A stretch of DNA of 64,000 bases from Eledone cirrhosa (taxonomy: Eukaryota). The stretch lies in the NCBI GenBank assembly GCA_964016885.1, contig OZ024743.1:165788001-165852000 (forward strand), written 5' to 3'. Below the pieces are notes generated by a model. It ran no database searches. It worked only from the letters and a program-made list of their open reading frames with translations, and was not told the origin of the DNA. Of the stretch, positions 3,141 to 63,933 are shown in pieces (position 1 is the first letter of the stretch; the number at the start of each line of letters is the position of its first letter). Made by a program: the position numbers and the translations under genes.

Positions 3141-3239
<99 letters not shown>

Positions 3240-3479
3240 ATAATAATAAATTTGAAGACTAAAATCCAAAGAGAGCTCGATAAGGATAAATATATATCAA
3301 ATATATAAGAACCGTAGAGCAAATAGAATGAAATTTCGTTTTCATTCTATTACAACTTATCGTTTTCGGTGCGCCTGGCCGACTGAACTCACTCTATATG
3401 CAAATTAGGCTGCTCAGCCGTTAATGTTCATAAGGAAAGTATATACTTTCGAACGTTCAACCATCTGGCAGAAGGGTAT

Positions 3480-3522
3480 ACGGTGCTGATGATAGCTTAG
3501 AAGCTTGAAACTAGTACATCGT
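3480..3522 (+). ncRNA. Minimal type I hammerhead, array unit 1
   Basis: Stem I ACGGTG/CATCGT; CTGATGA 3486; GAAA 3507; palindromic stem III ACTAGT; predicted cut after 3516. Confidence 0.85.
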
Positions 3523-3672
3523 TCCTGTGTCAGTGTTGAACAAAAAGGTGACGTGGTTGCCTTAACACCGTACGGCATAAATTCAGGCTGTTCGTTTGTT
3601 TACAAATGGACAAAGCGGGCGTTATAATAAACGTCCGCTAAACTGATACGTACATATATGTATGTGTACCTG

Positions 3673-3712
<40 letters not shown>

Positions 3713-3948
3713 TGCTACTGTACGTCTGTATACATATATGTATGTACGTATACATACATACTTACATTTAAGTAAGTGCCGTACTAAGAGTGAGAAATGA
3801 AATTTCGTTTTCATTCTATTACAACTTATCGTTTTCGGTGCGCCTGGCCGACTGAACTCACTCTATATGCAAATTAGGCTGCTCAGCCGTTAATGTTCAT
3901 AAGGAAAGTATATACTTTCGAACGTTCAACCATCTGGCAGAAGGGTAT

Positions 3949-3991
3949 ACGGTGCTGATGATAGCTTAGAAGCTTGAAACTAGTACATCGT
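3949..3991 (+). ncRNA. Minimal type I hammerhead, array unit 2
   Basis: Same motif; CTGATGA at 3955; predicted cut after 3985. Confidence 0.85.
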
Positions 3992-4162
3992 TCCTGTGTC
4001 AGTGTTGAACAAAAAGGTGACGTGGTTGCCTTAACACCGTACGGCATAAATTCAGGCTGTTCGTTTGTTTACAAATGGACAAAGCGGGCGTTATAATAAA
4101 CGTCCGCTAAACTGATACGTACATATATGTATGTGTACCTGTATGTATATATATATATATAT

Positions 4163-4969
4163 ATACATTATGAAGAGAGAAGAAACATTTAGATATAATT
4201 AGTAATAAAATGTATCATACCTAAACTGTTCCTAAATTCCTCGACTACGTAGTTTCGTGGCATAAACAAAAACAATATATCAAAGATATAGAGTCCTTGC
4301 GAGGTCTGCCGACTTATCAAGAGGATACCTCATTTTACTAGTCTCAAGAACGCGTCTACACGACGTGAGAAAGAATCCCAAAAGGCGGAGGGGGAGATAG
4401 TCACGCGATATAACGGTCGAGAAACAGAGCTAAGCCTCTTATAACCACGAAGAAAATACCACGGAGGCGGAGGGGGTATTCATATCGAGGCCGTAGAAGA
4501 GGTAGTGAAGAAGGCGAGAAGTATGAGTAATGGAAGCTTTCCAGTTGTCCCCACACTTCAAAGATTGCTCGACCAGAGGGAGTTATTAATATATTTAGAA
4601 ACACACAGATACATGCGGACACACACATATATACATGAATGCATCCGCACCCAACTGTGAGTTAAGGGTGCCCTCGCAAGGACTCTATATCTTTGATATA
4701 TTGTTTTTGTTTATGCCACGAAACTACGTAGTCGAGGAATTTAGGAACAGTTTAGGTATGATACATTTTATTACTAATTATATCTAAATGTTTCTTCTCT
4801 CTTCATAATGTATTTTTAACTCTGATACTGGTTCAGTCTAGTTCAAACTGAATTGGTCTGTCCCAGTCATTCATTGAGCAACATCGGTGAAGTTGGCACC
4901 CTTAACTCACAGTTGGGTGCGGATGCATTCATGTATATATGTGTGTGTCCGCATGTATCTGTGTGTTTC

Positions 4970-4977
<8 letters not shown>
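4163..4977. mobile_element. Non-coding hammerhead element with internal inversion, nested in the (TA)n of array unit 2
   Basis: 4163-4304 is the reverse complement of 4672-4813; 4589-4672 is the reverse complement of 4895-4977; TA runs on both sides. Confidence 0.75.
4238..4325 (-). ncRNA. Type I hammerhead, U3:A8 core, about 60 nt stem II domain
   Basis: Minus strand reads TCCTC-TTGATAA-GTcGGCA...TGCCAC-GAAACTACGTAGTC-GAGGA; palindromic stem III ACTACGTAGT; GUC site. Confidence 0.8.
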
Positions 4978-5057
<80 letters not shown>

Positions 5058-5292
5058 TGCTACTGTACGTCTGTATACATATATGTATGTACGTATACAT
5101 ACATACTTACATTTAAGTAAGTGCCGTACTAAGAGTGAGAAATGAAATTTCGTTTTCATTCTATTACAACTTATCGTTTCGGTGCGCCTGGCCGACTGAA
5201 CTCACTCTATATGCAAACTAGGCTGCTCAGCCGTTAATTTTCAAAACGAAAGTATATACTTTCGAACGTTCAACCATCTGGCAGAAGGGTAT

Positions 5293-5335
5293 ACGGTGCT
5301 GATGATAGCTAAGAAGCTTGAAACTAGTACATCGT
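5293..5335 (+). ncRNA. Minimal type I hammerhead, array unit 3
   Basis: Same motif; CTGATGA at 5299; predicted cut after 5329. Confidence 0.85.
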
Positions 5336-5485
5336 TCCTGTGTCAGTGTTGAACAAAAAGGTGACGTGGTTGCCTTAACACCGTACGGCATAAATTCAGG
5401 CTGTCCGTTTGTTTACAAATGGACAAAGCGGGCGTTATAATAAACGTCCGCTAAACTGATACGTACATATATGTATGTGTACCTT

Positions 5486-5567
<82 letters not shown>

Positions 5568-5807
5568 TGCATGCTACTGTACGTCTGTATACATATATGT
5601 ATGTACGTATACATACATACTTACATTTAAGTAAGTGCCGTACTAAGAGTGAGAAATGAAATTTCGTTTTCATTCTATTATAACTTATCGTTTTCGGTGC
5701 GCCTGGCCGACTGAACTCACTCGATATGCAAATTAGGCTGCTCAGCCGTTAATTTTCAAAAGGAAAGTATATACTTTCGAACGTTCAACCATCTGGCAGA
5801 AGGGTAT

Positions 5808-5850
5808 ACGGTGCTGATGATAGCTAAGAAGCTTGAAACTAGTACATCGT
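5808..5850 (+). ncRNA. Minimal type I hammerhead, array unit 4
   Basis: Same motif; CTGATGA at 5814; predicted cut after 5844. Confidence 0.85.
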
Positions 5851-5999
5851 TCCTGTGTCAGGGTTGAACAAAAAGGTGACGTGGTTGCCTTAACACCGTA
5901 CGGCATAAATCAGGCTGTCCGTTTGTTTACAAATGGACAAAGCGGGCGTTATAATAAACGTCCGCTAAACTGTTACGTACATATATGTATGTGTACCTG

Positions 6000-6061
<62 letters not shown>

Positions 6062-6608
6062 TGCTACTGTACGTCTGTATACATATATGTATGTACGTAT
6101 ACATACATACTTACATTTAAGTAAGTGCCGTACTAAGAGTGAGAAATGAAATTTCGTTTTCATTCTATTACAACTTATATATATACATATATATATATAA
6201 ATATATATATACATACATATACATACACGCACACATACACACATACACACACACGTACGAATAAATAATTAAAATACTATAAATGTATGTACACATGAGC
6301 CTGTCTGCAAATACGCCCGCACACAGCCCTATGTGGGAACATAAAAACCTAGTGGGTAAGTAAGGACAAAAGGGGAGTAAAATTGAAATAATAAACACAA
6401 ATATTAAGAATAGATATGGGAAAAGTGTTGTAAAAGGTTTGCGATCAGAGTATCTCGTTAAAGAGTGAACTGAGTAAATGATAAAGGTGGTGGGTGTGTA
6501 TGTGTAAAGGGTAAGGTAGAAAGTAGGGGGGATTATAAGTATGAGTTCATACATAGATAGGCTAAGCGAAAGATACATATATTGACCAGATAGTCAAACA
6601 CACCATCA

Positions 6609-7934: not shown

Positions 7935-10900
7935 CTACAGGCTTATAAACAGAGAAGGCCCAATTACTCGGGCCATTTTCGCTTCATTCACCCAGCTTTC
8001 AGTAAATTTACTGGGGTGCAGTGCCTCTCTCTCCACCCTGATTCTCCTTCTAAAGTGATACTTAAAGAAGGGAATCAATTGTTGTCCGGAGAGAAAGGCA
8101 TCTGTCCTCAGTCCTCTCAACCTCGTCCACCATATAACTTCTTTCACTATAGCCACCGTGCAGAGGAAAACCGCCTCTCTTTCGTTTTTGAAAGAGGCTG
8201 GTGGTTTGATCCTTACTATGGACTCGGCAGTCAACTGTATTTGTCCCATACGCGACAGCAGTTGTTCTGCATAGTTCCACAGGTCGGTTACGCCCGGGCA
8301 GTGTACAATTGCGTGCAAGACTGTTTCAATGTCCTGCGCGCATCTTGGACACGTCCTCTTGGAAGGATCCCTGCCGGGGCGTCCGTGCCTGTAGATCTTG
8401 TCACGAACCGGTAGAGCTCCTCGGTAGCACTGCCAGGCCAGGGACCTCTGGAAGTTGTCCATAGGTCCCGGGCGGAAAGTCCTACCAAACAGACTGGAGA
8501 GCTCATCGTCTTCGACGCTCAGAGTCTCTCCGAGCACGTCGGCGCCCTTGTAACGTACAATCCCTCCATAGAATGTCGAAGTGGAGTCTCCACTGATTGC
8601 TGCGCCCGCTTGCCAGAGGACTGTGAGCGCCTGAGCGCATTCAATGTGCCAGGCGCCCATTGTTTTCGGTCTTTTCTTCACCCAGGACTGCAGCTCCGTC
8701 AGCGAGACGAGCTGTCGGAAAGCCTGTCTCACAAACAGTGCCCACACCGGTTGGGGGTCGGTGAGGAATACCTGGAGATGCCGCAGCCTCAACGCATGTT
8801 TGCGCATCATCAGCCACGGCATTCCCAGCCCTCCGTTGGAAGGGTGCTGACAGCAGACGATCCTCCTCACCAGCGGAGCCTGCTTCTTCCACAGAAACTG
8901 GAAGAGCATGCGTTCCATCTTGGCGAGGTGTTCACGGGGACAAGGCACGACAGTCAAGCGGTAGTAGATGACGGACGCTATGAAAGTGTTCGCCACCTCC
9001 ACTCGACCTTTCAAGGACAGTTTGCACTCTGCCCACTTCTGGGTGAGTGCAAACACCTTGGCCAGTTTTTCTCCACCTGGAGGTTTGGAACGAACCAAAC
9101 CCCGAGCAATTTCCCCGGTCCGTCCGTCCAGCGTCCAACGACGCTGTCGGACGTCATCGGTTTGCCTCTCCACGTACCGAGTTGCAAACCGACAGACTTG
9201 TCCGGGTTTAGTTTTGCTCCCGTTAGCGTTTCGTATTCTTTCAGTAAGTTTCCGATCACACCATTACCGTCACGTGGTCAGCATAAGCCGACGCCGCTTT
9301 ACGCAGTCCCGGTTCTAGAGGGATGCCCTGCAACAGCTCCAATTTCCGCAGTAGTGGCTCTAGAGTCAATACATACAGAATGGAGGAGAGGGGTCACCCC
9401 TGTCGAATGGAACGCGTGATTGCGAACGGCTCCGATAGGTAGCTGTTCACCTTGACCCTCGCTGGTGTGCATCGCCTCGATCCATCCTCTGAACACGGGA
9501 CCCAAACCGGCCGCCTTGAGAACCGCTTCCAAGTATCGATGGTCGACCCTATCGAATGCCTTAGACTGATTCAAGGTGATTAGAGCCCCACCGAAGCCGG
9601 GTTTACTACCCACCCTCTCTATGATGTATCGCATGAGGTGGAGGTTGTCGTGTATGGACCTGGGCGGGATTGCACACGTTTGCGCTTTCCCTACCAGGTT
9701 CTCGACGACAAGCGCCAACCTCGTCGCTAGCACCTTGGCCAAAATCTTTAACTCTGTGTTGAGCAGAGTTACGGGCCTGAAGTTGTTAATTTCGTCCCCC
9801 TTGTTCTCGTCTTTCCTGATCAGCGTTACTACGCCCTTTCCTGCAGAACTGGGAATTCTCCCGTTCTGCTGCCAATTGCAGTAGACGGCTTCGAGGACGC
9901 CAGAGAACGAGTCCGGCATGCCTATGTAATACTCGTAGGGTAGACCATCTAGACCGGGTGACTTGCATTTCTCGCAGCGGCTCAGAGCGTCCCGTATCTC
10001 AGTGTCCGTGATCGGTCTTTCGCAGAAATCGCCGTCCCTGTTCGAGAGACGCGGCAGGCCGTCGAGGTATGAACTAAAGTCCATTGCCCCGTTCGGCTCA
10101 CCGTCGTTCTGCTCAAACAGTCGCGCAAAGTGCCGCTGAAAGGCCGCGCACATTTGCTTGGGGTCAAGTAACACGCGTCCGTTTGGTCTTTCAAAGACCG
10201 AATCGTGAACTTGTTGCCACTTTTTGCCTCCGCCATTCGGGCCCAGTTGACAGCTTTCGCTCCTTCGTTTCCTAGAGCACGTGTTTTGCTTCTGACCACG
10301 CAGTCTTCGTGTTTCGCATCGAAGAACTGGTCCAGTGCCGTTCTCGACGCTAACACTCTAGCCGCGTTGCCACTTCTAAGTGCCTCCTCTACCTTGTCTA
10401 CTAGTTCTATTTCTATTCTGTTTTTCTCTAAGGCTAACTCTCTGCTATACCCTATCGATTCTATTCTAATTGCTTTCTTGAGATAGTACCACCATCTATT
10501 GTTGACGATGGCTCCCGTTAACTGTTGCTTGACTAGTCTACTTATCCGTTCACTGTAAGCTTTACGTGCCGGCAACGATACGTTCAGCTTCCAGTATCCG
10601 GGTCCCTGTCTATGTATTCGATCACGGTTGACTAAGCAGACGACTAACTTGTGATCTGAATAGGCAACCATGTGCATTCGTGGACAGCTTAACATCTCCT
10701 TTCCCTTTCTCTAATGAAGAACCTATCTAAATACGATCTAGATGTCCCGCTGCGGTTTGCCCACGTCCACTGTGGTGCAGTCGGGAAATCCAGTCGATAC
10801 CTATCGGCCAGTTGGAATTGGCCGATTAAAGTTTTGAGGCTGTTGCACCCCCCTCTACTGGGACATGCTCCCACATAGTCCCATCGTGCATCTAGGATAC

Positions 10901-23180: not shown

Positions 23181-26100
23181 AGTCAACGCGATCAGTCGCA
23201 TATTTTGGCGTAGGAGACTATTTATTAAATTTAAGATGAATACTATCTCCGACAGTAATGCCACAACTACAGCCAGGTTGAATAACTGGTTATTCTTCTA
23301 ACTATCCCTTCTGAAGACACCTTTTATTCGAATTCGTAGAGATATCCGACTAAATACATAATTAATTTTACAAGGATTTGCTACAAACAGCATGGCTGAA
23401 CACAACATCAACATCAAAATTAAGGAAGTATCGAAGACAAACAACAAAGAAGGTAATCAAACTTTATTCAGTTGTAGTTACAGAAGAAACCGAAATTATA
23501 AATCGCATTTCTCTTGGAGTTGCGAACTTAATAATGATTTATTTAATTGTTATAAAATGGCAAAAAACAATCCCTCCATTGGCTATATGAATAGAATGAA
23601 GCTACACTGGGACGAAATGCACCCAGAGCTAAATTATTTCACAGCGAAACAATTACACCAACAAGCGACGTTTGTTGAACGTAAAAATAAGATAAATATT
23701 ATTAATTGTAAGTCCCCAACAACAAACATGGAATCAACAACACGTGCTACAGATCGCCATGCTACTAGACTTCCTAGCAGCCAGATCGAACAGCGCCTTG
23801 AAACAACTATGCCTGTAAGAAATTTGACACCACCTGTACCATCTAAGTCTACCTCGAATGCTGGCGAAAACACTATCGATAATAATAATAATCGAAGAAA
23901 TAATAATAATAATCGAATAAATGTGACACCACGTATACCATCCGAGTCTACCTCGATTATCGATAATTATAACCAAAAGTATAAACAATTGAAAATTTCC
24001 CTCAACGAAATCTTCCAGAGAGAAATTAACTCATGTATAAATATCTCTCTGGCTGAACGTGTTAAAATGACAATGGTGAATAAAAAACCAAATAATGAAA
24101 TACTACGTGTTATTGACGAAATAGGGGATGAATATTTACGACGGATAAAAACCCCAACATTTTGGCAAATCAACGCCTGTTTATATGCCTTAGTAATGAC
24201 AGTGAAGCATTATCTTGGTGATAGCAGAGATATTAACAAGAACAAAACACCACCAAAAATACCATCATATATAACTAAAATAGAAAAAAAGAGTGCTGAC
24301 CTACGAAAAAACATAGGACATGTGACAATGCTTCTTACATGCAAACAAACACAAAAAAACCTCACTCCTCACCAACAAAGAGTGAAAAATAAAATAGAGA
24401 CGATGTTTGGTAACAGTAGAACCAGAACTCTCCAATATAAGCTGATCACCCTCAAACAAGAATTGAGAGCTGTTAGCGAAAAACGCCGATACCTGAAGAA
24501 GGTAGATGAGAGAAAAATGCTTAATAAAAGATTCAGACGAAACCAAACATCAGTCTATAGAGATATGAAGGGCAAAATAATAAGTGTCACTGAGGCCCCA
24601 TCCCAGAAAGACATAGATTCCTTTTGGAGAAAAATATGGGGTGAAAAGAAGAATTTCAACCAAGATGCAGTGTGGCCAAGAGAAATCCGAAAGAACTATT
24701 GCTCCTACACTACAACAAAAACATACGAAATAAGTGAGGGTACCCTTGAGACTGTGATAGGAAAACTCCAAGATAAGAAAACACCAGGAAGAGACATGAT
24801 TGTCGGCTACTGGTACAAAAAAATAATATTCTATCGGAGGTATCTTACTGACCTCTACCAACAAGTTCTTAAGGGAGATACACTTATACCAGAATGGTTG
24901 ACATTAGCACAAACGTTACTGGTCCCCAAGAACAAAGACACCCACTTGGCAAAAAACTACCGATCCATTGCATGCCAGAACCTGATGTATAAGATGTATA
25001 CAGCCTGCCTGAACCTATTCCTCCAAGATCACTGTGAAAATAATAACATCATCACAGATGAACAAGCAGCTGGAAAGAAAAGGGTTTGGGGATGTGCTGA
25101 ACAACTCCTAATCAACAAAACTGCGATGTCGGAGGTGCGACAACTTAGGAGGAATATGACTACAGTCTGGCTGGACTACAAGAAAGCTTTCGATTCTGTT
25201 CCCCACTCTTGGATGATAGAGGCCCTCCAACTTGCTAAAGTCCCAGACATTATTGTCAGAGCCATAGAGAAGCTGTCTTCTTCTTGGGCTACTATCCTAA
25301 GGTTAAAGACAGAGAGGGAGGACTCTATTTTCACTGATAAAATAAAATAGTGCAGGGGTATATTTCAGGGGGACAGTCTCTCTGTGATATTGTTCATCTT
25401 GTCATTAAACCCCTTGTCATTTCTGCTCAAGAGATGTGAGGGATACATCATTGGCTCACAGGAGGACAGAAATACGAACCTAACCCATAACTTCTTTGTG
25501 GACGATCTGAAACTCTATGCCAAGAACATGGATGGGATGAAGAAAAATCTTGACCTGGTTACAACGTTCTGAAAGGATATAGGAATGGAGTTTGGCCAAG
25601 ATAAATGCTAATACATGACTGTAAAGCGGGGAAAAACAACAACCCAATCTAGCAACATTGTCATCAATTGTCTAACTGTTTCACCGATATCTGATGAGGA
25701 CTGCTACAGATACCTGGGGATAGATGAGAACATATCCTATAATGGTATCAGTAATAAAGAACGCGTAACCAGGGAATATTACACCCGATTAAGAAAGATC
25801 TGGTCATCGGAACTCTCTGCGCAAAACAAAACAGTGGCTCACAATGTGTTTGCTGTGCGTGTCCTAACACCAACGTTTGGAATACTCAATTGGACGATAG
25901 ACGAAATCCGAGCAATTGATTTTGGAACTCGAAAAATAATGAACAACACCGGAAACTTCCACATCAACAGTGACATAGACCGCCTTTACTTGAAACGTAG
26001 GCAGGGAGGCAGAGGCCTAACATCAGTCCAGACAACATTTGAATGTCGCATCATATCTCTCCGACAACATCTAAGAACCTCGAAGCGTAGGAGCCCGCTT

Positions 26101-37400: not shown

Positions 37401-40400
37401 ATGGAAAAATTTGAACAGGGACAAAACAGAGAGGCAGTACAATAAATGTTTATTAATTTCACGCTCAGGAGAGTGGGGTGTAGGTGGGGGACGACGTTTC
37501 GGGCATAAGCCCTTCCTCAGGTGAGAAGTGTGTGGGAACAGAGTTCAAAAGGTGTGTAGGGGAGTGGTGGAGAGACATATAGCGAAAGGAAACGGTGCGA
37601 ATGAAAAAATAACAAATAAAGATAAAAATAAAAATAAAGCATGATCAAAATACAAGGAATGAGATAAATTTAAAAATAAAGGCATGATCAAAATAAACTG
37701 AAATTAAAAGGGGGGTAAACAGGTGGTGGAAGGGTGTGGGGTGAGTAGGGGTGGTGGCGGGTGGAGTGGGGAGAGGGAGACGGGGTGTCCGAGCGGTGAG
37801 GGCTGAAGGTGGTGTGTGCGTGTAGGTGTGCGTGTGTGTGTGTGTGTGTATGTGAAAGTAAGGGTTGGGGGAAGAACGGGGTTGCATGTTCAGGAAGAGG
37901 TGTGTGTGGGGGGTGTTTTTGTGGGTCGGAGTGTCTGTGCGTGTGTGGATAGGGGGTGGGGGGAGAGGAATCAGGAGGCTGAGGGTGTAAATATGTGGTG
38001 GAAAGCACCTGTTGTGGGTGTGGGTGGCGTGTGGAGAAAAGAATTTTTTGGGGGTGTGTGTGGGTGAGTTATATAGGTGATTACGTAAGAGGATGGTTGA
38101 AAAGTTGGTAAATTCCAAGGATGTTTAGTGGATTGGTTGTAAGTCAATTTCTGCGTATGGGTAATCCATGAAGCGGTGGTCGGAAGAGGAAAGATGTGGG
38201 GTGCGCGCGCAACAGGAAGTGGTCAGCAGTGGGAGTGCTGTGGTCTGTTAGTGCTGGGAGGTGGTCAGAGGGCATAGCAGCAGTCGGTGGAATGGTAAGG
38301 GGGCGAGGATGGGTAGGTGTAAAAGTTGGAGTGAGGAGTGTGTGTGTGTGTGTGTATTAGTAGGGGTGTGTGGGATGAGTGAGTGTGGAGCGAGGGTGTG
38401 GGTGGAGCGGGGAGAGAAGGGTGTGTGTGGTTCTATGGAGGGAGTGTGGTGTACTGGTGTGTGTGTAGTTTGATGAAGAGGTGTTAGTGGGTGTTAGTAT
38501 ACGGGAGGTAGGGAGGGGTTGAATGCAGGTGTGAGTGGGGGTTAGTGGTGGTAGGGTGTGTAGAGTTGGTGGTGTACGAGGGGTGTGAGTACGTGTGCGT
38601 GGGGTTGGGGGTGTTAGTGATGTTAGTTGCGTGTGGGGTGGGTGGTGTAAGTGGGTGCGTGTGTTCGTGTGCTTGGGGTTAGGGGGTGTTAGTGAGGTTA
38701 GTTGCGGGGTGGTGGGATGGAGGTGTGGGGGTGAGAGGGGGTGGGGGTGAGGGTTAGTGGTGGTAGTAGGGTGTGTGTTTAGTGTGAGCGCGTGTATATA
38801 TGTGCTGGTGGGTGTGTGCGTGTGATAAGGAGGGGGAGGAGGAGAAGAGTGTAGGGAAGGGATGTTAGTATGTTAGTTGGGGAAGGGTGGTCAGATGAGG
38901 GGTGGAGTGGAGGTGTTAGTATTGTTAGTGTGGGGTGGGCGGTGAAAAGGAGGGGTGTGTTAGTGGTGTTAGTGGGGGATAAGTGTGGGGGAGGGGGGCG
39001 GTCGAACGCTAAAGGAATAAGGGTGGGGAGTTCAGGCCGGGGGGAGTGTGGGTCTGTAAGATGAAGATAGTTCGTTGTTCGACCGTAAGGCGATGGGCGG
39101 GTGTTCCGTGGCACTGGAGTAGGCCACAGACTGTGAGATGGCGTGCGGAGTGTCCAGGGCCACCAAAGTGGCGGGCGATGGGGGAACTGCCCCCGAGACG
39201 AATATCCCGGAGGTGCTCCGTGACTCGGTCCGCCAGGCGACGTCCCGTCTGTCCGACATAAGTCGCGCTGCACACCGTGCAGCGAAGTTCGTAGACTAGG
39301 TTGGGGGAGGTGCAGCGGAAGGCATGCCGGACCGAGAGAGAGTGGCCGTTGGGACCCTGGAAGGTGGTGGTGTTGGTGATGTGGGGACAGGTGTTGCAGC
39401 GGGGCCTAGAACAGGGAAAGGAACCGGGGGGGAACAGAGCGTGGGTTGGGGGGTAGGGAGCTGTGGACGAGGAGGGTGCGGAGATTGCGTGCGCGTTTGA
39501 AGGAGGGGAGTGGTGGGGTTGGGAAGATGTGGGAGGTGGAGGGGTCGGACTGGAGGCGTCGGAAGAGGCGGCGGATGGTGCGGTGGAGGGGTAAGGTGGA
39601 GGGGTGGTAGGTGATGGGGAAGGGGAGACGGTGGGTGGGTGTGCGGTGGCGTGGGGTGAGGGTGGTGGAGCGGGGGACAGCACGGGCGCGGGTGAGAGCG
39701 GTGTAGACGAGAGAGGGGGGTAACCTCTGCGGATGAAATGGCTGACTAGGGAAAGGGCCTGGGACTCGAAGTCAGCATCACGGCTACAGAGGCGGCGGAT
39801 CCTGAGAAGTTGGGAGTAGGGAATGGAGTGTTTAGTGTGGGTGGGGTGGGAAGAGGTGAAGTCGAGGTAAGAGTGGGAGTCGGTGGGTTTGAAGAAGGCG
39901 GAGGTGACGAGGGAGTGGTGGGAGGGGTCGAAGGCGACGGAGATGTCTAAGAAGTGGACGTGGGTGGTGGAGATAGAGGTGGTGAAGTGGAGGGAGGGGT
40001 GGAAGGAGCAGAAGAAGGAGAGAAAGGAGTCGAGCTGTTCTCGGGTGAGGGTCGTGGCTCCGATACAGTCGTCAATGTAACGACCGTACAGTTCGGGCGT
40101 GGGGCCGGTGTACTGGGCAAAGATTTGGGCCTCAACATGGCCAACAAAAAGGTTGGCATAGTTCGGGCCCATTCTTGTGCCCATGGCTACCCCCGTGACC
40201 TGTTGGTTAAACTCACCCTAGAAGGAGAAACAATTTAGGGTGAGGACCAGCTCGGCGAGGCGAAGGAGGGTGGGGTGGAGGGAATGGGGGAGGGGCGAAG
40301 GTCTAGGTAGTGTTTGAGGGCGCGAAGGCCGTCGGCGTGGGGGATGACTGTATAGAGGGACTTGATGTCTAGGGTGAAGAGGAAGGGCTGTAGGCCGGGT

Positions 40401-46371: not shown

Positions 46372-47640
46372 TATATTTGGAAAAACATATGATTTTTATA
46401 TATAGGTTTTTATATATATATGTGGAATAACCTATGGTTTAGGCTTTAAATATATTCTTAAGATAAATTTTTTTTTTTAATTTTTAACTTTATAGCTAGT
46501 AAATTTATGACTTCGTATAAAATAACATAATATGGTTCATGTTTTAATTATATTCTTAAGATAAAAAATGTTTAACTTTTTAACTTTATAACATTTAATC
46601 CTTGGAGTCATCTGAGATCTTAAAAAATCACTTATAACTTCCTTTACACTTCCTTACTGTTTTTATAATATAATTAAGTGGTTATTCGTTTGTAAACTCT
46701 CGCAAATTTTTCATAAATTTAGAATTATTTGGATGTTTAAATTTTGACTTACAACTTTTAATAAAATAAACTATATTAGATTTTCTCTAATGTAAAATAC
46801 TATATATTTATAATCCTTAACATACACATTTAAACTAATTATTAATATTAAATTATTAATTTAAATCTTTAATATTAAGGCAAATTTTAATCTTTAATTT
46901 TGATTTCTAATTTTTAATTTTAATCTAATTTTTCAACCTATCATTATAAGTATTATAATCAAAACGTAATGAACCCTGCATTATAAATATTCTTCTTCCA
47001 CGTTAATCTTATTTCTTCTTTCACTTAGATATACTTACGCTGTATATATTTATCTTTTGAAACTTATTTATTCATGCACTCTATCTTCACTATCAATATG
47101 TATAATCGTTCTTTCTTTCCTCTTCTCCTTTTTTTTTCGTTTTTCTTTTTTTCTCTCTCCCTTACATATCATCTTCTTCCAACAGTTTAATTTAAATAAA
47201 CCGTTATCTTTTCAACCTTTCGGACACTCATTTGCATACTCACTCATAACTTTGTATTACCCTCAATAAATGTACTTTCTCCACTATCCAGGAAGCTCCA
47301 ACCGTTCAGGTTGTCTTTTTTCCGGGTATGTCAATATTTATTTATAAAACAAATCTGTATTTTATCTGATGAAAGCGCACCAGAATGGTTGCATTTTTTA
47401 AGGGTATGTCAATATTTATTTATAAAACTAACCTATATTATATTTTATCTGATGAAAGCGCACCATAGTTTGCTCTGGTGGCCCTTGAAATGTGTATAAT
47501 GATATAAATATGGTTTTATAAATATAGTTTCCATTTGTTAATATATTGTATATTTACTCCAATAATTTGTTGAGTGCTTTATATCAGTTATAAAAATATT
47601 TTGCTTGTTGTATCCCAACAAATTAAATATAACCTCTACA
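46372..47640 (+). mobile_element. PLE 3' UTR/terminal segment, inverted relative to 41113-41695
   Basis: 46375-46712 is the reverse complement of about 41362-41695; 47441-47636 is related to the reverse complement of 41131-41332. Confidence 0.75.
47441..47506 (+). ncRNA. Type I hammerhead, preceded by a half copy at about 47359-47392
   Basis: TATTTTAT-CTGATGA(47449)-AAGcGCACCA..TGGTGgCcCTT-GAAA(47487)-TGTGTATA-ATGATATA. Confidence 0.75.
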
Positions 47641-47656
47641 TATATATATATATATA

Positions 47657-48402
47657 TATATAAATTAATATGTATGTGATGAAACACAGATACCAACACA
47701 TCTGTATATATATTGCAAAAGAAAAATTAGTATACTTCAATCTGGCTAAATTTTTCTTTTGCAATATATATACAGATGTGTTGGTATCTGTGTTTCATCA
47801 CATACATATTAATTTATACACTGCTCAGGGGGTATTTTCCTCCTTCGAGCTGATTCCATTGTAAAAGAATTCATTTCCTTATTAATTTTAACTGCTCCTA
47901 GTTTGAGCTGCAAGCCGCCTCATATATACGACTGTTATTTCTAGCAGTACGGTTATGAGACTAGTTAGATACTGTAAAACCATGTGCGTCACGCAGTCTT
48001 TTAAATTATTTAGAAGTGAAGCATATCAATTTGTCTCTGGATGTTTACTGAGGAGAGCAGGACATGATATTCCTACACTTATTTAACTCGAAACATATTT
48101 GGATCTTAAAGTTTAAACTTATCTACGGAACAGGTTTGATTTTGAAATTTAAATGTGTCTAAACATCACGGCCTCTTGGCAATACAGTTCGTCTTCGTTG
48201 ATTTATTATTTTAAATCGATATGGACAAACTGTAGTATAATAATTAGTATACTTCAATCTGGCTAAATTTTTCTTTTGCAATATATATACAGATGTGTTG
48301 GTATCTGTGTTTCATCACATACATATTAATTTATACACTGCTCAGGGGGTATTTTCCTCCTTCGAGCTGATTCCATTGTAAAAGAATTCATTACCTTATT
48401 AA
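47657..48402 (+). mobile_element. Non-coding hammerhead element: inverted 5' end plus about 1.3 copies of a 518 bp unit, in (TA)n
   Basis: 47657-47725 is the inverse of about 47749-47818; 47724-47887 is repeated at 48243-48402. Confidence 0.75.
48040..48167 (+). ncRNA. Type I hammerhead with extended stem III and branched stem II
   Basis: Stem I GATGTTTA/TAAACATC (perfect 8 bp); CTGAGGA 48048; GAG..CTC; GAAA 48090; stem III ACATATTT/AAATGTGT enclosing about 50 nt; GUC at 48157-48159. Confidence 0.85.
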
Positions 48403-48446
<44 letters not shown>

Positions 48447-48483
48447 TGTGTGTGTGTGAAAGAGTCGGGACCCAACGGCTGAG

Positions 48484-51735: not shown

Positions 51736-53704
<1,969 letters not shown>

Positions 53705-57418: not shown

Positions 57419-57482
<64 letters not shown>

Positions 57483-57488
<6 letters not shown>

Positions 57489-57893
57489 AGATCAAAAGAT
57501 GGTTAAAGGAGTTCCATGTATTTTATTATGCGCATTTCAAAAACAAACATCATCGTGCAATAATATTTGTGTTTTCATCAGATAAAACAGGAGAACATGA
57601 TATGAAGGCTAAAAAATACTTGTGGATAGTGCAGTTTTAAATCAACATAAAAACTGCACTATCCACAAGTGTTTTTTAGCCTTCATATCATGTTCTCCTG
57701 TTTTATCTGATGAAAACACAAATATTATTGCACGATGATGTTTGTTTTTGAAATGCGCATAATAAAATACATGGAACTCCTTTAACCATCTTTTGATCTT
57801 ATATTATGTATACTCCAGTCCTACAAACTGTAGAGTGCTTCTTATCCGATATCTGCATTGCTTTATTGTACTACAATAAAACTCACCTCCTAC

Positions 57894-62664: not shown

Positions 62665-62674
<10 letters not shown>

Positions 62675-63835
62675 TAAAACATGTCTATAGAATCACAAGA
62701 TAAAATATATACTATTTCCTCTCCCAATTAGCATAATTAACTATATAAAAAATCGAATAGACCAGGCTATAAGAATGAGGCTTCTATGAAGAAATCTCCG
62801 ACAAATAACCAAAACTAGCCCTTCGCGTCGGCCGTAGCGGAATATGTATCGAATATTTCGACTCCTGTTTAGTTGACTATATCTGGGCGATTACGCTGTC
62901 GAAATATTCGATAAATATTCCGCTACGGCCGACGCGAAGGGCTAGTTTTGGTTATTTGTCGGAGATTTCTTCATAGAAGCCTCCTTCTTATAGCCTGGTC
63001 TATTCGATTTTTTATATAGTTAATTATGCTAATTGGGAGAGGAAATAGTATATATTTTATCTTGTGATTCTATAGACATGTTTTATGATATATAGCTCTG
63101 ATTGTTTAATTTATTAATTTTTCATTGAGCCACAAAGTGACAAGTTGCAAAACACGTATATGTATATATATGTATATATATATGTAAAATTTTATATGTA
63201 ATAATCTCCCATTAGGTTGAGATACAAATTTGGCTGTATTGTGCTGTGCTTTCTAGCAAAAATGCCACCAGTCGTAAGCAACTACCACACCCCCTTCGAA
63301 CCTGACCGCGACTACGTCACGATTTTTAGCCATTTTGAATTAATTCTTGGCGCGATCACTTTGGAAAATTTAGTGTCTAGATAAGAGCGAACTTCCTGAT
63401 GAATCCGACGCTCGAGTTTATATAATTATTACATAATTATTGGAAGACTCAAAATACGGATGAAACCATGGTAGAGGTATTTAAATGTATTCTATTTTCT
63501 CCTAGTTTATTTTACACCTAATTCTGTTTAGTTGACTGTAGCTGGGCGATTACGCTGTCGAAATATTCGATAAATATTCCGCTACGGCCGACGCGAAGGG
63601 CTAGTTTTGGTTATTTGTCGGAGATTTCTTCATAGAAGCCTCATTCTTATAGCCTGGTCTATTCGATTTTTTATATAGTTAATTATGCTAATTGGGAGAG
63701 GAAATAGTATATATTTTATCTTATGATTCTATAGACATGTTTTATGATATATAGCTCTGATTGTTTAATTTATTAATTTTTCATTGAGCCACAAAGTGAC
63801 CAGTTGCAAAACACGTATATGTATATATATGTAAA

Positions 63836-63840
<5 letters not shown>
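62665..63840 (+). mobile_element. Non-coding hammerhead element: inverted 5' end plus about 1.5 copies of a 659 bp unit, in (TA)n
   Basis: 62665-62862 is the inverse of about 62898-63094; 62865-63190 is repeated at 63524-63840. Confidence 0.8.
63391..63478 (+). ncRNA. Type I hammerhead with about 59 nt stem II domain
   Basis: ACTTC-CTGATGA(63396)-ATCCG..GAGT..ACTC..CGGAT-GAAA(63462)-palindromic ACCATGGT-A-GAGGT; predicted cut after 63473. Confidence 0.85.

Positions 63841-63933
<93 letters not shown>

What the first reader, a model, noticed from the sequence alone, without database searches (positions are those of the whole stretch)
47657..48402. 518 bp redundant unit carrying a hammerhead with a long stem III
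Seen: the same layout again (inverted 5' arm, 160 bp direct redundancy, TA flanks). The ribozyme has a perfect 8 bp stem I, a branched stem II and an 8 bp stem III enclosing about 50 further nucleotides. Known: PLE hammerheads usually have a tiny or palindromic stem III and need to dimerise. Inference: this one could cleave as a monomer, and standard descriptors with short loop limits would miss it.
Basis: partly seen in the sequence, partly recalled or inferred. Interest (0 to 1): 0.7.

Follow-up and report, generated by a model that had tools for sequence, protein, structure and literature searches.

The report
Pseudoknotted long-armed hammerhead in mobile repeat
This is one copy of an abundant 517-base non-coding repeat in an animal genome, likely spread by a Penelope-type jumping gene, and it carries a predicted self-cutting RNA that the standard RNA-family library does not detect, with a very long third arm and a long extra helix that is predicted to clamp it into shape so that it would cut as a single molecule.

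Summary
Mostly confirmed, with corrections. The period is 517 bp, not 518. The element is a non-coding, (TA)n-inserted repeat; a stem III motif matches 1,444 places in the genome. [quoted passage not shown] The type I hammerhead has an intact core, and stem I covaries (5 of 8 pairs) across subfamilies 66-95% alike. Stem III is a predicted 28-bp hairpin, not 8 bp around a loop; it is conserved but shows almost no double changes. 'Branched stem II' is not supported: loop II instead pairs with the strand just upstream of stem I (48014-48039), a three-part helix of about 19 bp with compensatory changes, best read as a pseudoknot. Monomer cleavage, long helix III and short pseudoknots are each known; this combination was not found in the papers read. 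Cleavage, expression and the helper element are not shown. The scan noted two-armed ends and another pseudoknotted family in this genome before.

The parts
47640..47658 (.). (TA)n tract, left flank (target microsatellite; no target-site duplication can be read)
47659..47728 (-). Inverted short arm, 70 bp, copy of 47749-47818; its outer end is fixed end A
47725..47728 (.). AATT microhomology joining the inverted arm to the main arm
   Evidence: junction overlaps of a few nt are the commonest among 66 inverted pairs
47725..48241 (+). One full 517-nt non-coding repeat unit (longest open frame in the body 59 codons; circle folds at z -4.2)
47754..47869 (+). Predicted structured domain that holds end A (47818) and the tail hairpin 47823-47850; candidate reverse-transcriptase start region
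   Evidence: z -4.3; tail hairpin G-C to A-U changes seen by eye, not counted
48014..48039 (+). Upstream strand of the three-part helix: Pc 48014-21, Pb 48023-28, Pa 48032-39
   Evidence: 48013-28 is 99% conserved against 12 sister copies
48040..48047 (+). Hammerhead stem I, 5' strand
48048..48054 (+). Catalytic core CUGAGGA (position 7 is G, A or U by subfamily)
48055..48089 (+). Domain II: 3-bp stem II (48055-57/48087-89); loop II 48058-80 pairs with the upstream strand; 6-nt linker 48081-86
48090..48159 (+). GAA, then stem III 48093-48158 (28 predicted pairs, C-UACG-G apex 48123-28), then C17 at 48159; predicted cut between 48159 and 48160
48160..48167 (+). Hammerhead stem I, 3' strand
48242..48335 (+). 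Redundant part of the next unit up to end A (48335)
48336..48403 (+). 68-nt 'tail' between end A and end B (48403), present on this arm only
48404..48447 (.). (TA)n tract, right flank

Best explanation
This is a young insertion of a non-coding 517-nt repeat with Penelope-type tandem and inverted ends, likely copied in trans by a Penelope-like reverse transcriptase, and each unit carries a type I hammerhead that is predicted to fold and cut as a monomer, held by a 28-bp stem III and a long pseudoknot between loop II and the strand upstream of stem I. Shown: layout, copy number, two fixed ends used one per arm, intact core, compensatory changes in stem I and in the upstream/loop II helix. Inferred: a helper RT/GIY-YIG protein nicks both strands of a (TA)n target and primes two cDNAs at two internal RNA sites (A and B, 68 nt apart) on a more-than-unit template (circle or uncut multimer); the cDNAs join 5'-to-5' by microhomology. 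Inferred for the ribozyme: the upstream helix folds first as a hairpin whose 18-nt loop displays stem I 5' strand, core and stem II 5' strand; the downstream strands then dock, so the helix ties the tip of stem I to the 2-3-bp stem II in place of the usual loop-loop contact.
For: Ends: 52 of 54 classifiable two-armed insertions have one A and one B end (2 A/A, 0 B/B; 66 pairs examined, 11 unclassifiable, one duplicate dropped), and 16 of 16 clean cases in a further, noisier set. This matches the PLE tail and inversion layout (PMC8557442) and two internal RT start sites (PMC11167929). Tandem arrays of 7, at least 19, and (from match spacing) about 50 units. Stem I: 5 of 8 pairs with double changes, 98-99% paired. 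Upstream/loop II helix: 2 of 15 and 4 of 14 pairs with double changes, 89-95% paired; own partners -17.5 vs swapped -12.8 kcal/mol over 17 representatives, no effect for a control segment; median duplex -16.1 in 127 clade ribozymes vs -4.7 in 44 short-stem-III hammerheads; kept with different letters in distant families. In all 17 representatives it starts at or within two bases of the end of stem I and stem II and takes no core base. Pseudoknots of 4-6 bp between stems I and II raise activity and go with 1-2-bp stem II (PMC3088659). Stem III is 97% conserved against 80-88% for non-ribozyme parts. cDNA 5' ends are enriched just 3' of the cut site: ratio 3.3 (15 stops, p 2.5e-4, window chosen after seeing the data), repeated at 2.6 (11 stops, p 0.008) in independent loci.
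Against: No cleavage or expression shown. No helper found: no RT frame joined to a unit in the loci examined. Geometry: only 5-9 nt return from the far end of a ~19-bp helix to stem II, too short for a straight helix, so it must kink or partly open. Nested folding cannot score a pseudoknot: with 45 nt upstream it prefers the hairpin to stem I (P stem I 0.09 in the window copy); in the whole unit it gives stem I 0.82-0.84 but G10.1-C11.1 0.0007 and Pc 0.07. Stem III has almost only one-sided changes, and its 3rd and 4th pairs are open in 11 and 17 of 20 rows. Covariation counts come from a few related lineages; shuffles ignore kinship (7/500 and 12/500 for double-change pairs). 38 of 53 arms read through the cut site and none of the 15 stops lies exactly at it (+4 to +32). 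Units within one arm differ in mosaic patterns (L031, L035), which a single monomer circle does not explain. Whole families carry core changes (CAGAAGA, CUGAUGU).
Confidence: 0.7

Rival explanations
1. Same element, but the upstream helix is a brake rather than a clamp: the full hairpin (or its outer part Pc) keeps stem II from closing, and cleavage happens only when it opens, for example on binding of the helper protein.
For: 5-9-nt linker against a ~19-bp helix; nested folding favours the hairpin; most cDNAs read through the cut site; the anole PLE hammerhead cut only with protein and uncut RNA was the main template (PMC11167929).
Against: The helix takes no core or stem base and its register next to stems I and II is kept through G-C to U-A exchange; known inhibitory folds would be expected to cover ribozyme strands (own knowledge); stem I-II pseudoknots activate in PMC3088659.
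Confidence: 0.2
2. The ribozyme fold is kept as a protein-binding or RNA-stability scaffold and rarely cuts; the excess of cDNA stops marks a folded roadblock, not an RNA end.
For: Stops lie 4-32 nt downstream of the cut, not at it; families with U4A or A9U cores spread; 8 of 9 Xenopus retrozymes did not cut in vitro (bioRxiv 10.64898/2026.07.22.740005).
Against: Core bases stay near-invariant while position 7 varies freely; A9U is reported in functional natural ribozymes (PMC10085705).
Confidence: 0.08
3. A DNA-level satellite or MITE-like repeat with a chance hammerhead-like motif.
For: Long tandem arrays exist; inverted ends.
Against: Variable 5' truncation, fixed asymmetric outer ends, strand-specific folding (circle -122.6 vs -103.2 kcal/mol) and stem I covariation.
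Confidence: 0.02

Closest known systems
Metazoan non-LTR retrozymes (Cervera and de la Pena 2020, PMC7229834, passages; review PMC7761336, passages; Li, Clavereau and Pollet 2026, bioRxiv 10.64898/2026.07.22.740005, parts 1-3 of 5)
   Same: Non-coding, low-GC tandem units with one type I hammerhead each; proposed non-autonomous PLE derivatives; monomer cleavage common in invertebrates.
   Different: Helix III of 28 bp rather than 1-2 bp plus tetraloop; no canonical loop 1/loop 2 motif seen, a long base-paired helix instead; unit 511-550 nt; circular RNA not shown.
EN+ Penelope-like elements and their pLTR/tail (Craig et al. 2021, PMC8557442, passages; Frangieh et al. 2024, PMC11167929, parts 1-2 of 4)
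   Same: Partial tandems, inverted 5'-truncated arm, tail on one end, microsatellite/AT-rich targets, two internal start sites.
   Different: No ORF; tail 68 nt here and 82 nt in a sister subfamily against 30-40 bp; near-strict one-site-per-arm rule (Frangieh saw no strand difference in vitro); animal PLE hammerheads are described as minimal or with small palindromic helix III.
Fungal and protist PLE hammerheads (Cervera and de la Pena 2014, PMC4209133, parts 1-2 of 4; figures not seen)
   Same: Type I, large helix III, no recognisable loop-loop contact, monomer-active (one tested).
   Different: Those sit in EN-deficient telomeric PLEs of fungi and protists; no pseudoknot is mentioned in the parts read.
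Pseudoknotted hammerheads incl. human C10orf118 ribozyme (Perreault et al. 2011, PMC3088659, passages and parts 2-3 of 8; figures and supplement not seen)
   Same: Base-paired stem I-stem II contact, very short stem II.
   Different: Pseudoknots of 4-6 bp in the text read, against three segments of about 19 bp in all; here in a high-copy animal mobile repeat.

Membership tests
Type I hammerhead ribozyme | Core CUGANGA / GAAA / NUH around a three-way junction, stem I open | tested here: met
Type I hammerhead ribozyme | Stems supported by compensatory change | tested here: met
   Stem I 5 of 8 pairs; third pair of stem II in 2 of 30 rows; stem III one-sided only
Type I hammerhead ribozyme | Self-cleavage at the NUH site | not testable with these tools
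   Only indirect: excess cDNA stops 3' of the site
Rfam hammerhead families | Match to a covariance model | tested here: not met
   No hammerhead hit at E<=10 on 47990-48200 or in the window scan
Pseudoknot-stabilised hammerheads (Perreault 2011) | Watson-Crick pairing between loop II and the extension of stem I | tested here: met
Pseudoknot-stabilised hammerheads (Perreault 2011) | The pairing coexists with the core fold and raises activity | not testable with these tools
   Register argues for it, linker length against a straight form
Dimerising minimal PLE hammerheads | Absent or 1-2-bp helix III with palindromic loop | tested here: not met
   28-bp hairpin, P about 1.0
Non-LTR retrozyme | Non-coding tandem repeats with a type I hammerhead in each unit | tested here: met
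Non-LTR retrozyme | Expressed as linear and circular monomer RNA | tested here: inconclusive
   No usable RNA data; variant mosaics do not single out a circle
Penelope-like elements (non-autonomous) | Partial tandem/inverted insertion with one-sided tail | tested here: met
Penelope-like elements (non-autonomous) | Sequence shared with the pLTR of an autonomous PLE | tested here: inconclusive
   No partner in the loci examined, a small part of more than 1,400 copies
Penelope-like elements (autonomous) | RT plus GIY-YIG ORF | tested here: not met
   Longest frame 59 codons

The most novel reading that the evidence does not exclude
A gated monomer hammerhead: having lost control by dimerisation through a long stem III, this retrozyme clade uses a three-part, ~19-bp pseudoknot whose inner part clamps the active fold and whose outer part, with too short a linker, locks stem II open until the helper reverse transcriptase or another factor releases it, timing cutting and circle formation to the transposition cycle.
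Probability: 0.22. Interest if true: 0.75.

Novelty: new variant of a known kind. Interest (0 to 1): 0.52.

Why it matters
It shows a large set of animal hammerheads that Rfam and short-spacer searches do not see, so counts of ribozymes in retroelements are likely too low. The scaffold comes in natural versions with stem III from 5-8 bp to 28 bp and many compensatory variants, a ready series for testing what the long pseudoknot does. The role of PLE hammerheads is an open question in the papers read; a young, near-identical family with fixed start sites A and B and a monomer-competent ribozyme makes cutting, circle formation and two-ended priming directly testable. The element class and the layout themselves are known.

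Tried and rejected
Rfam: no hammerhead hit. A systematic difference between inner and terminal repeat copies: rejected, the window's 47876 T is private. Inner stem II hairpin: rejected. An apparent covarying helix between the core and loop II from RNAalifold: one lineage event and absent from the divergent subfamilies, dropped. A-to-G excess in stem III as a mark of RNA editing: 17 of 22 A sites vs 14 of 28 T sites, p 0.08, inconclusive. Sequencing runs: no RNA holder listed; four contig sets of unknown kind laid, which cannot show ends or expression, and the unit-to-unit joint also exists in DNA; no evidence either way. Helper search: ORF scan of L001-L133, arm maps of L134-L223, profile search of the window and L001-L223, tail-pattern loci L226-L253 (output partly cut), generic hammerhead scan of 1.28 Mb; the PLE frame in L067 is separated from the old unit by other insertions; none found. 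Pattern excluding G at 10.1 gave 7 hits, 5 decayed family copies and 2 chance-like. In one search one probed pair (48025-48069) was off register and is ignored. In one search six stops at +1 were reference-boundary artefacts (for the loci concerned one search shows the arms running through) and were dropped. Literature searches found no description of this ribozyme form; Lunse et al. 2017 and Arkhipova et al. 2017 are not held, and figures and supplements of PMC3088659 and PMC4209133 were not seen and may show similar type I examples. Sequence look-up in earlier scan notes: nothing.

Full report
Observation. The window lies in a 3.0-Gb genome (G000). At 47659-48403 there is a 70-bp perfect inverted arm (47659-47728 = reverse complement of 47749-47818), a 517-nt unit from 47725, and a 162-bp direct redundancy with one mismatch, between (TA)n tracts. 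The arms overlap by AATT. A type I hammerhead sits on the + strand: stem I 48040-47/48160-67, CUGAGGA, 3-bp stem II, GAAA, stem III 48093-48158, C17 at 48159. Stem III is a predicted 28-pair hairpin with a C-UACG-G apex (that UNCG loops are unusually stable is recalled), z -4.8. Rfam does not see the ribozyme at E<=10. The body has no frame over 59 codons.

Family. A DNA search gave 1,666 candidates; the 40 scored were 99-100% identical over 361 nt. Patterns gave 147, 141, 268 and 1,444 matches, reversed controls 0. Complete units are 511-550 nt (56 units) and subfamilies are 66-95% alike. Arrays reach 7 units, at least 19 and, from match spacing, about 50. More distant families share the tail motif (622 matches).

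Ends. Outer ends fall at two fixed places, A (47818/48335) and B (47886/48403). Of 66 inverted pairs in L001-L126, 55 had both ends classifiable; dropping one local duplicate, 52 of 54 were A plus B, 2 A/A, none B/B (p 1.6e-13 against even odds). A motif-based call on L134-L223 was noisy, but all 16 clean cases were A plus B. The 68 nt between A and B is the PLE tail; PMC8557442 (passages) describes partial tandems, an inverted truncated copy and a 30-40-bp tail at one end, and PMC11167929 (parts 1-2) shows that the tail lies between two internal RT start sites. A and the tail lie in a domain that folds at z -4.3. Inference: both target strands prime, one at A and one at B, and the cDNAs join by microhomology. 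Arms of one insertion differ by 1.1-1.4% against 3.5% between loci, so they come from related templates; mosaic variants within arrays (L031, L035) fit a multimer or template switching as well as a circle.

5' stops. Counting only stretches not forced by the selecting motif, 15 of 123 arms stop within 37 nt 3' of the cut site, a rate 3.3 times the baseline (p 2.5e-4), with none in the 38 nt 5' of it; 38 of 53 arms read through. The window was chosen after seeing the histogram, so I repeated it on 110 arms of 71 other loci: 17 raw stops, six of them boundary artefacts, leaving 11, ratio 2.6, p 0.008. Stops lie at +4 to +39, not at the cut. This shows a template feature at the ribozyme, either a cut end or a folded roadblock; it does not prove cleavage.

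Ribozyme structure. Young copies gave one compensatory pair in stem I (8 of 167). Divergent subfamilies gave 5 of 8 stem I pairs with double changes in both alignments (30 and 20 chosen rows). Stem III is 97% conserved against 80-88% for non-ribozyme parts (12 sister copies), but its changes are one-sided (7 and 9 pairs; double changes 1 of 29 and 0 of 30), and pairs 3-4 are often open. The inner 'stem II' hairpin fails (68% paired, below a slid control). Instead the 26 nt upstream of stem I pair with loop II in three segments, Pa, Pb and Pc, with double changes in 2 of 15 and 4 of 14 pairs. Over 17 representatives own partners average -17.5 kcal/mol and swapped ones -12.8; a control segment shows no such effect (kinship is not removed by the permutation). 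The duplex is -16.1 (median, 127 clade ribozymes) against -4.7 in 44 short-stem-III hammerheads from the same loci. Distant families keep it with other letters and with stems III of only 5-8 bp, so the helix is the general scaffold and the very long stem III a feature of this clade. The helix closes a loop made of stem I 5' strand, core and stem II 5' strand and covers none of them, which argues for a pseudoknot. PMC3088659 (passages and parts 2-3) reports such contacts of 4-6 bp in about 40% of hammerheads of all three types, needed for speed and tolerant of a 1-2-bp stem II. Against a simple picture: 5-9 nt must return from the far end of about 19 bp; nested folding, which cannot score the crossing, gives the active fold without the helix 4.7 kcal/mol above the ensemble and, with upstream sequence, swaps stem I for the hairpin; in the whole unit it keeps stems I and III but not stem II.

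Mechanism. Most likely (0.7): a non-autonomous PLE-mobilised retrozyme whose monomer ribozyme is clamped by the pseudoknot. Rival (0.2): the helix, or its outer part, is a brake. Shown: layout, end rule, conservation, covariation. Inferred: transcription, cleavage, circle or multimer template, helper identity. No helper was found, and sequencing runs gave no usable evidence.

Comparison and novelty. It meets the DNA-level definition of a non-LTR retrozyme (PMC7229834, passages; bioRxiv 10.64898/2026.07.22.740005, parts 1-3) and works like a PLE; the RNA-level test is open. Monomer cleavage is known for invertebrate retrozymes (PMC7761336, passages) and a large helix III for fungal and protist PLEs (PMC4209133, parts 1-2). 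A ~19-bp three-part pseudoknot with a 28-bp helix III in an animal mobile repeat was not found in seven literature searches, but two relevant papers are not held and figures and supplements were not seen. Earlier scan notes on this genome describe two-armed ends and one other pseudoknotted family; they are unchecked AI notes and not counted as support. Verdict: real, new variant of a known kind, interest 0.52.

Noticed in passing
window 3055; 34065; 41323(-); 53839(-); 54088(-); 57581(-)/57707(+); 63396; decayed copies near 47366 and 47449: Type I hammerheads with short, mostly palindromic stem III; 57476-57812 is an inverted pair. Typical minimal PLE-type motifs, without the long upstream helix.
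   Followed up: partly
window 3150-6180 (motif at 3482, 3951, 5295, 5810): Another tandem repeat of about 470-520 nt with a hammerhead core and palindromic CUAG stem III, and a (TA)n tract inside the unit.
   Followed up: no
window 62666-63865: Second element with the same inverted-arm plus direct-redundancy layout and a hammerhead with long stem II at 63396.
   Followed up: no
L227, L233, L235, L247: A family with core CAGAAGA (U4 to A), 6-7-bp stem III and the same pseudoknot; L235 also reads GGAA for GAAA.
   Followed up: partly
L139, L143, L158, L167, L175: A subfamily with core CUGAUGU (A9 to U); this change is reported in functional ribozymes (PMC10085705).
   Followed up: partly
L092:5045, L138:1814(-), L238:2964(-); L077:6745; L249; L253: Distant non-coding families with a similar three-part upstream helix and 5-8-bp stem III.
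   Followed up: partly
L181, L217, L223: The pyrimidine run after Pc is duplicated (UUUUUCAC/UUUUUCAU), giving alternative registers; a triple helix along Pc is conceivable in the divergent subfamilies but the window's linker does not fit it.
   Followed up: no
G000:C2:383780571-383806441; L190: Long arrays of about 526-nt and 522-nt units with unit-to-unit mosaic variants.
   Followed up: partly
window 47823-47850 and sister subfamilies: The tail hairpin changes from G-C-rich to A-U-rich pairs between subfamilies, seen by eye; tail length is 68 nt here and 82 nt in the L215 subfamily.
   Followed up: partly
window 9302-10357(-), 23362-25347(+), 39012-40217(-), 52374-53018(-): Broken retroelement frames: two RVT_1 hits, one GIY-YIG hit above cutoff and one below; none is joined to the element.
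   Followed up: no
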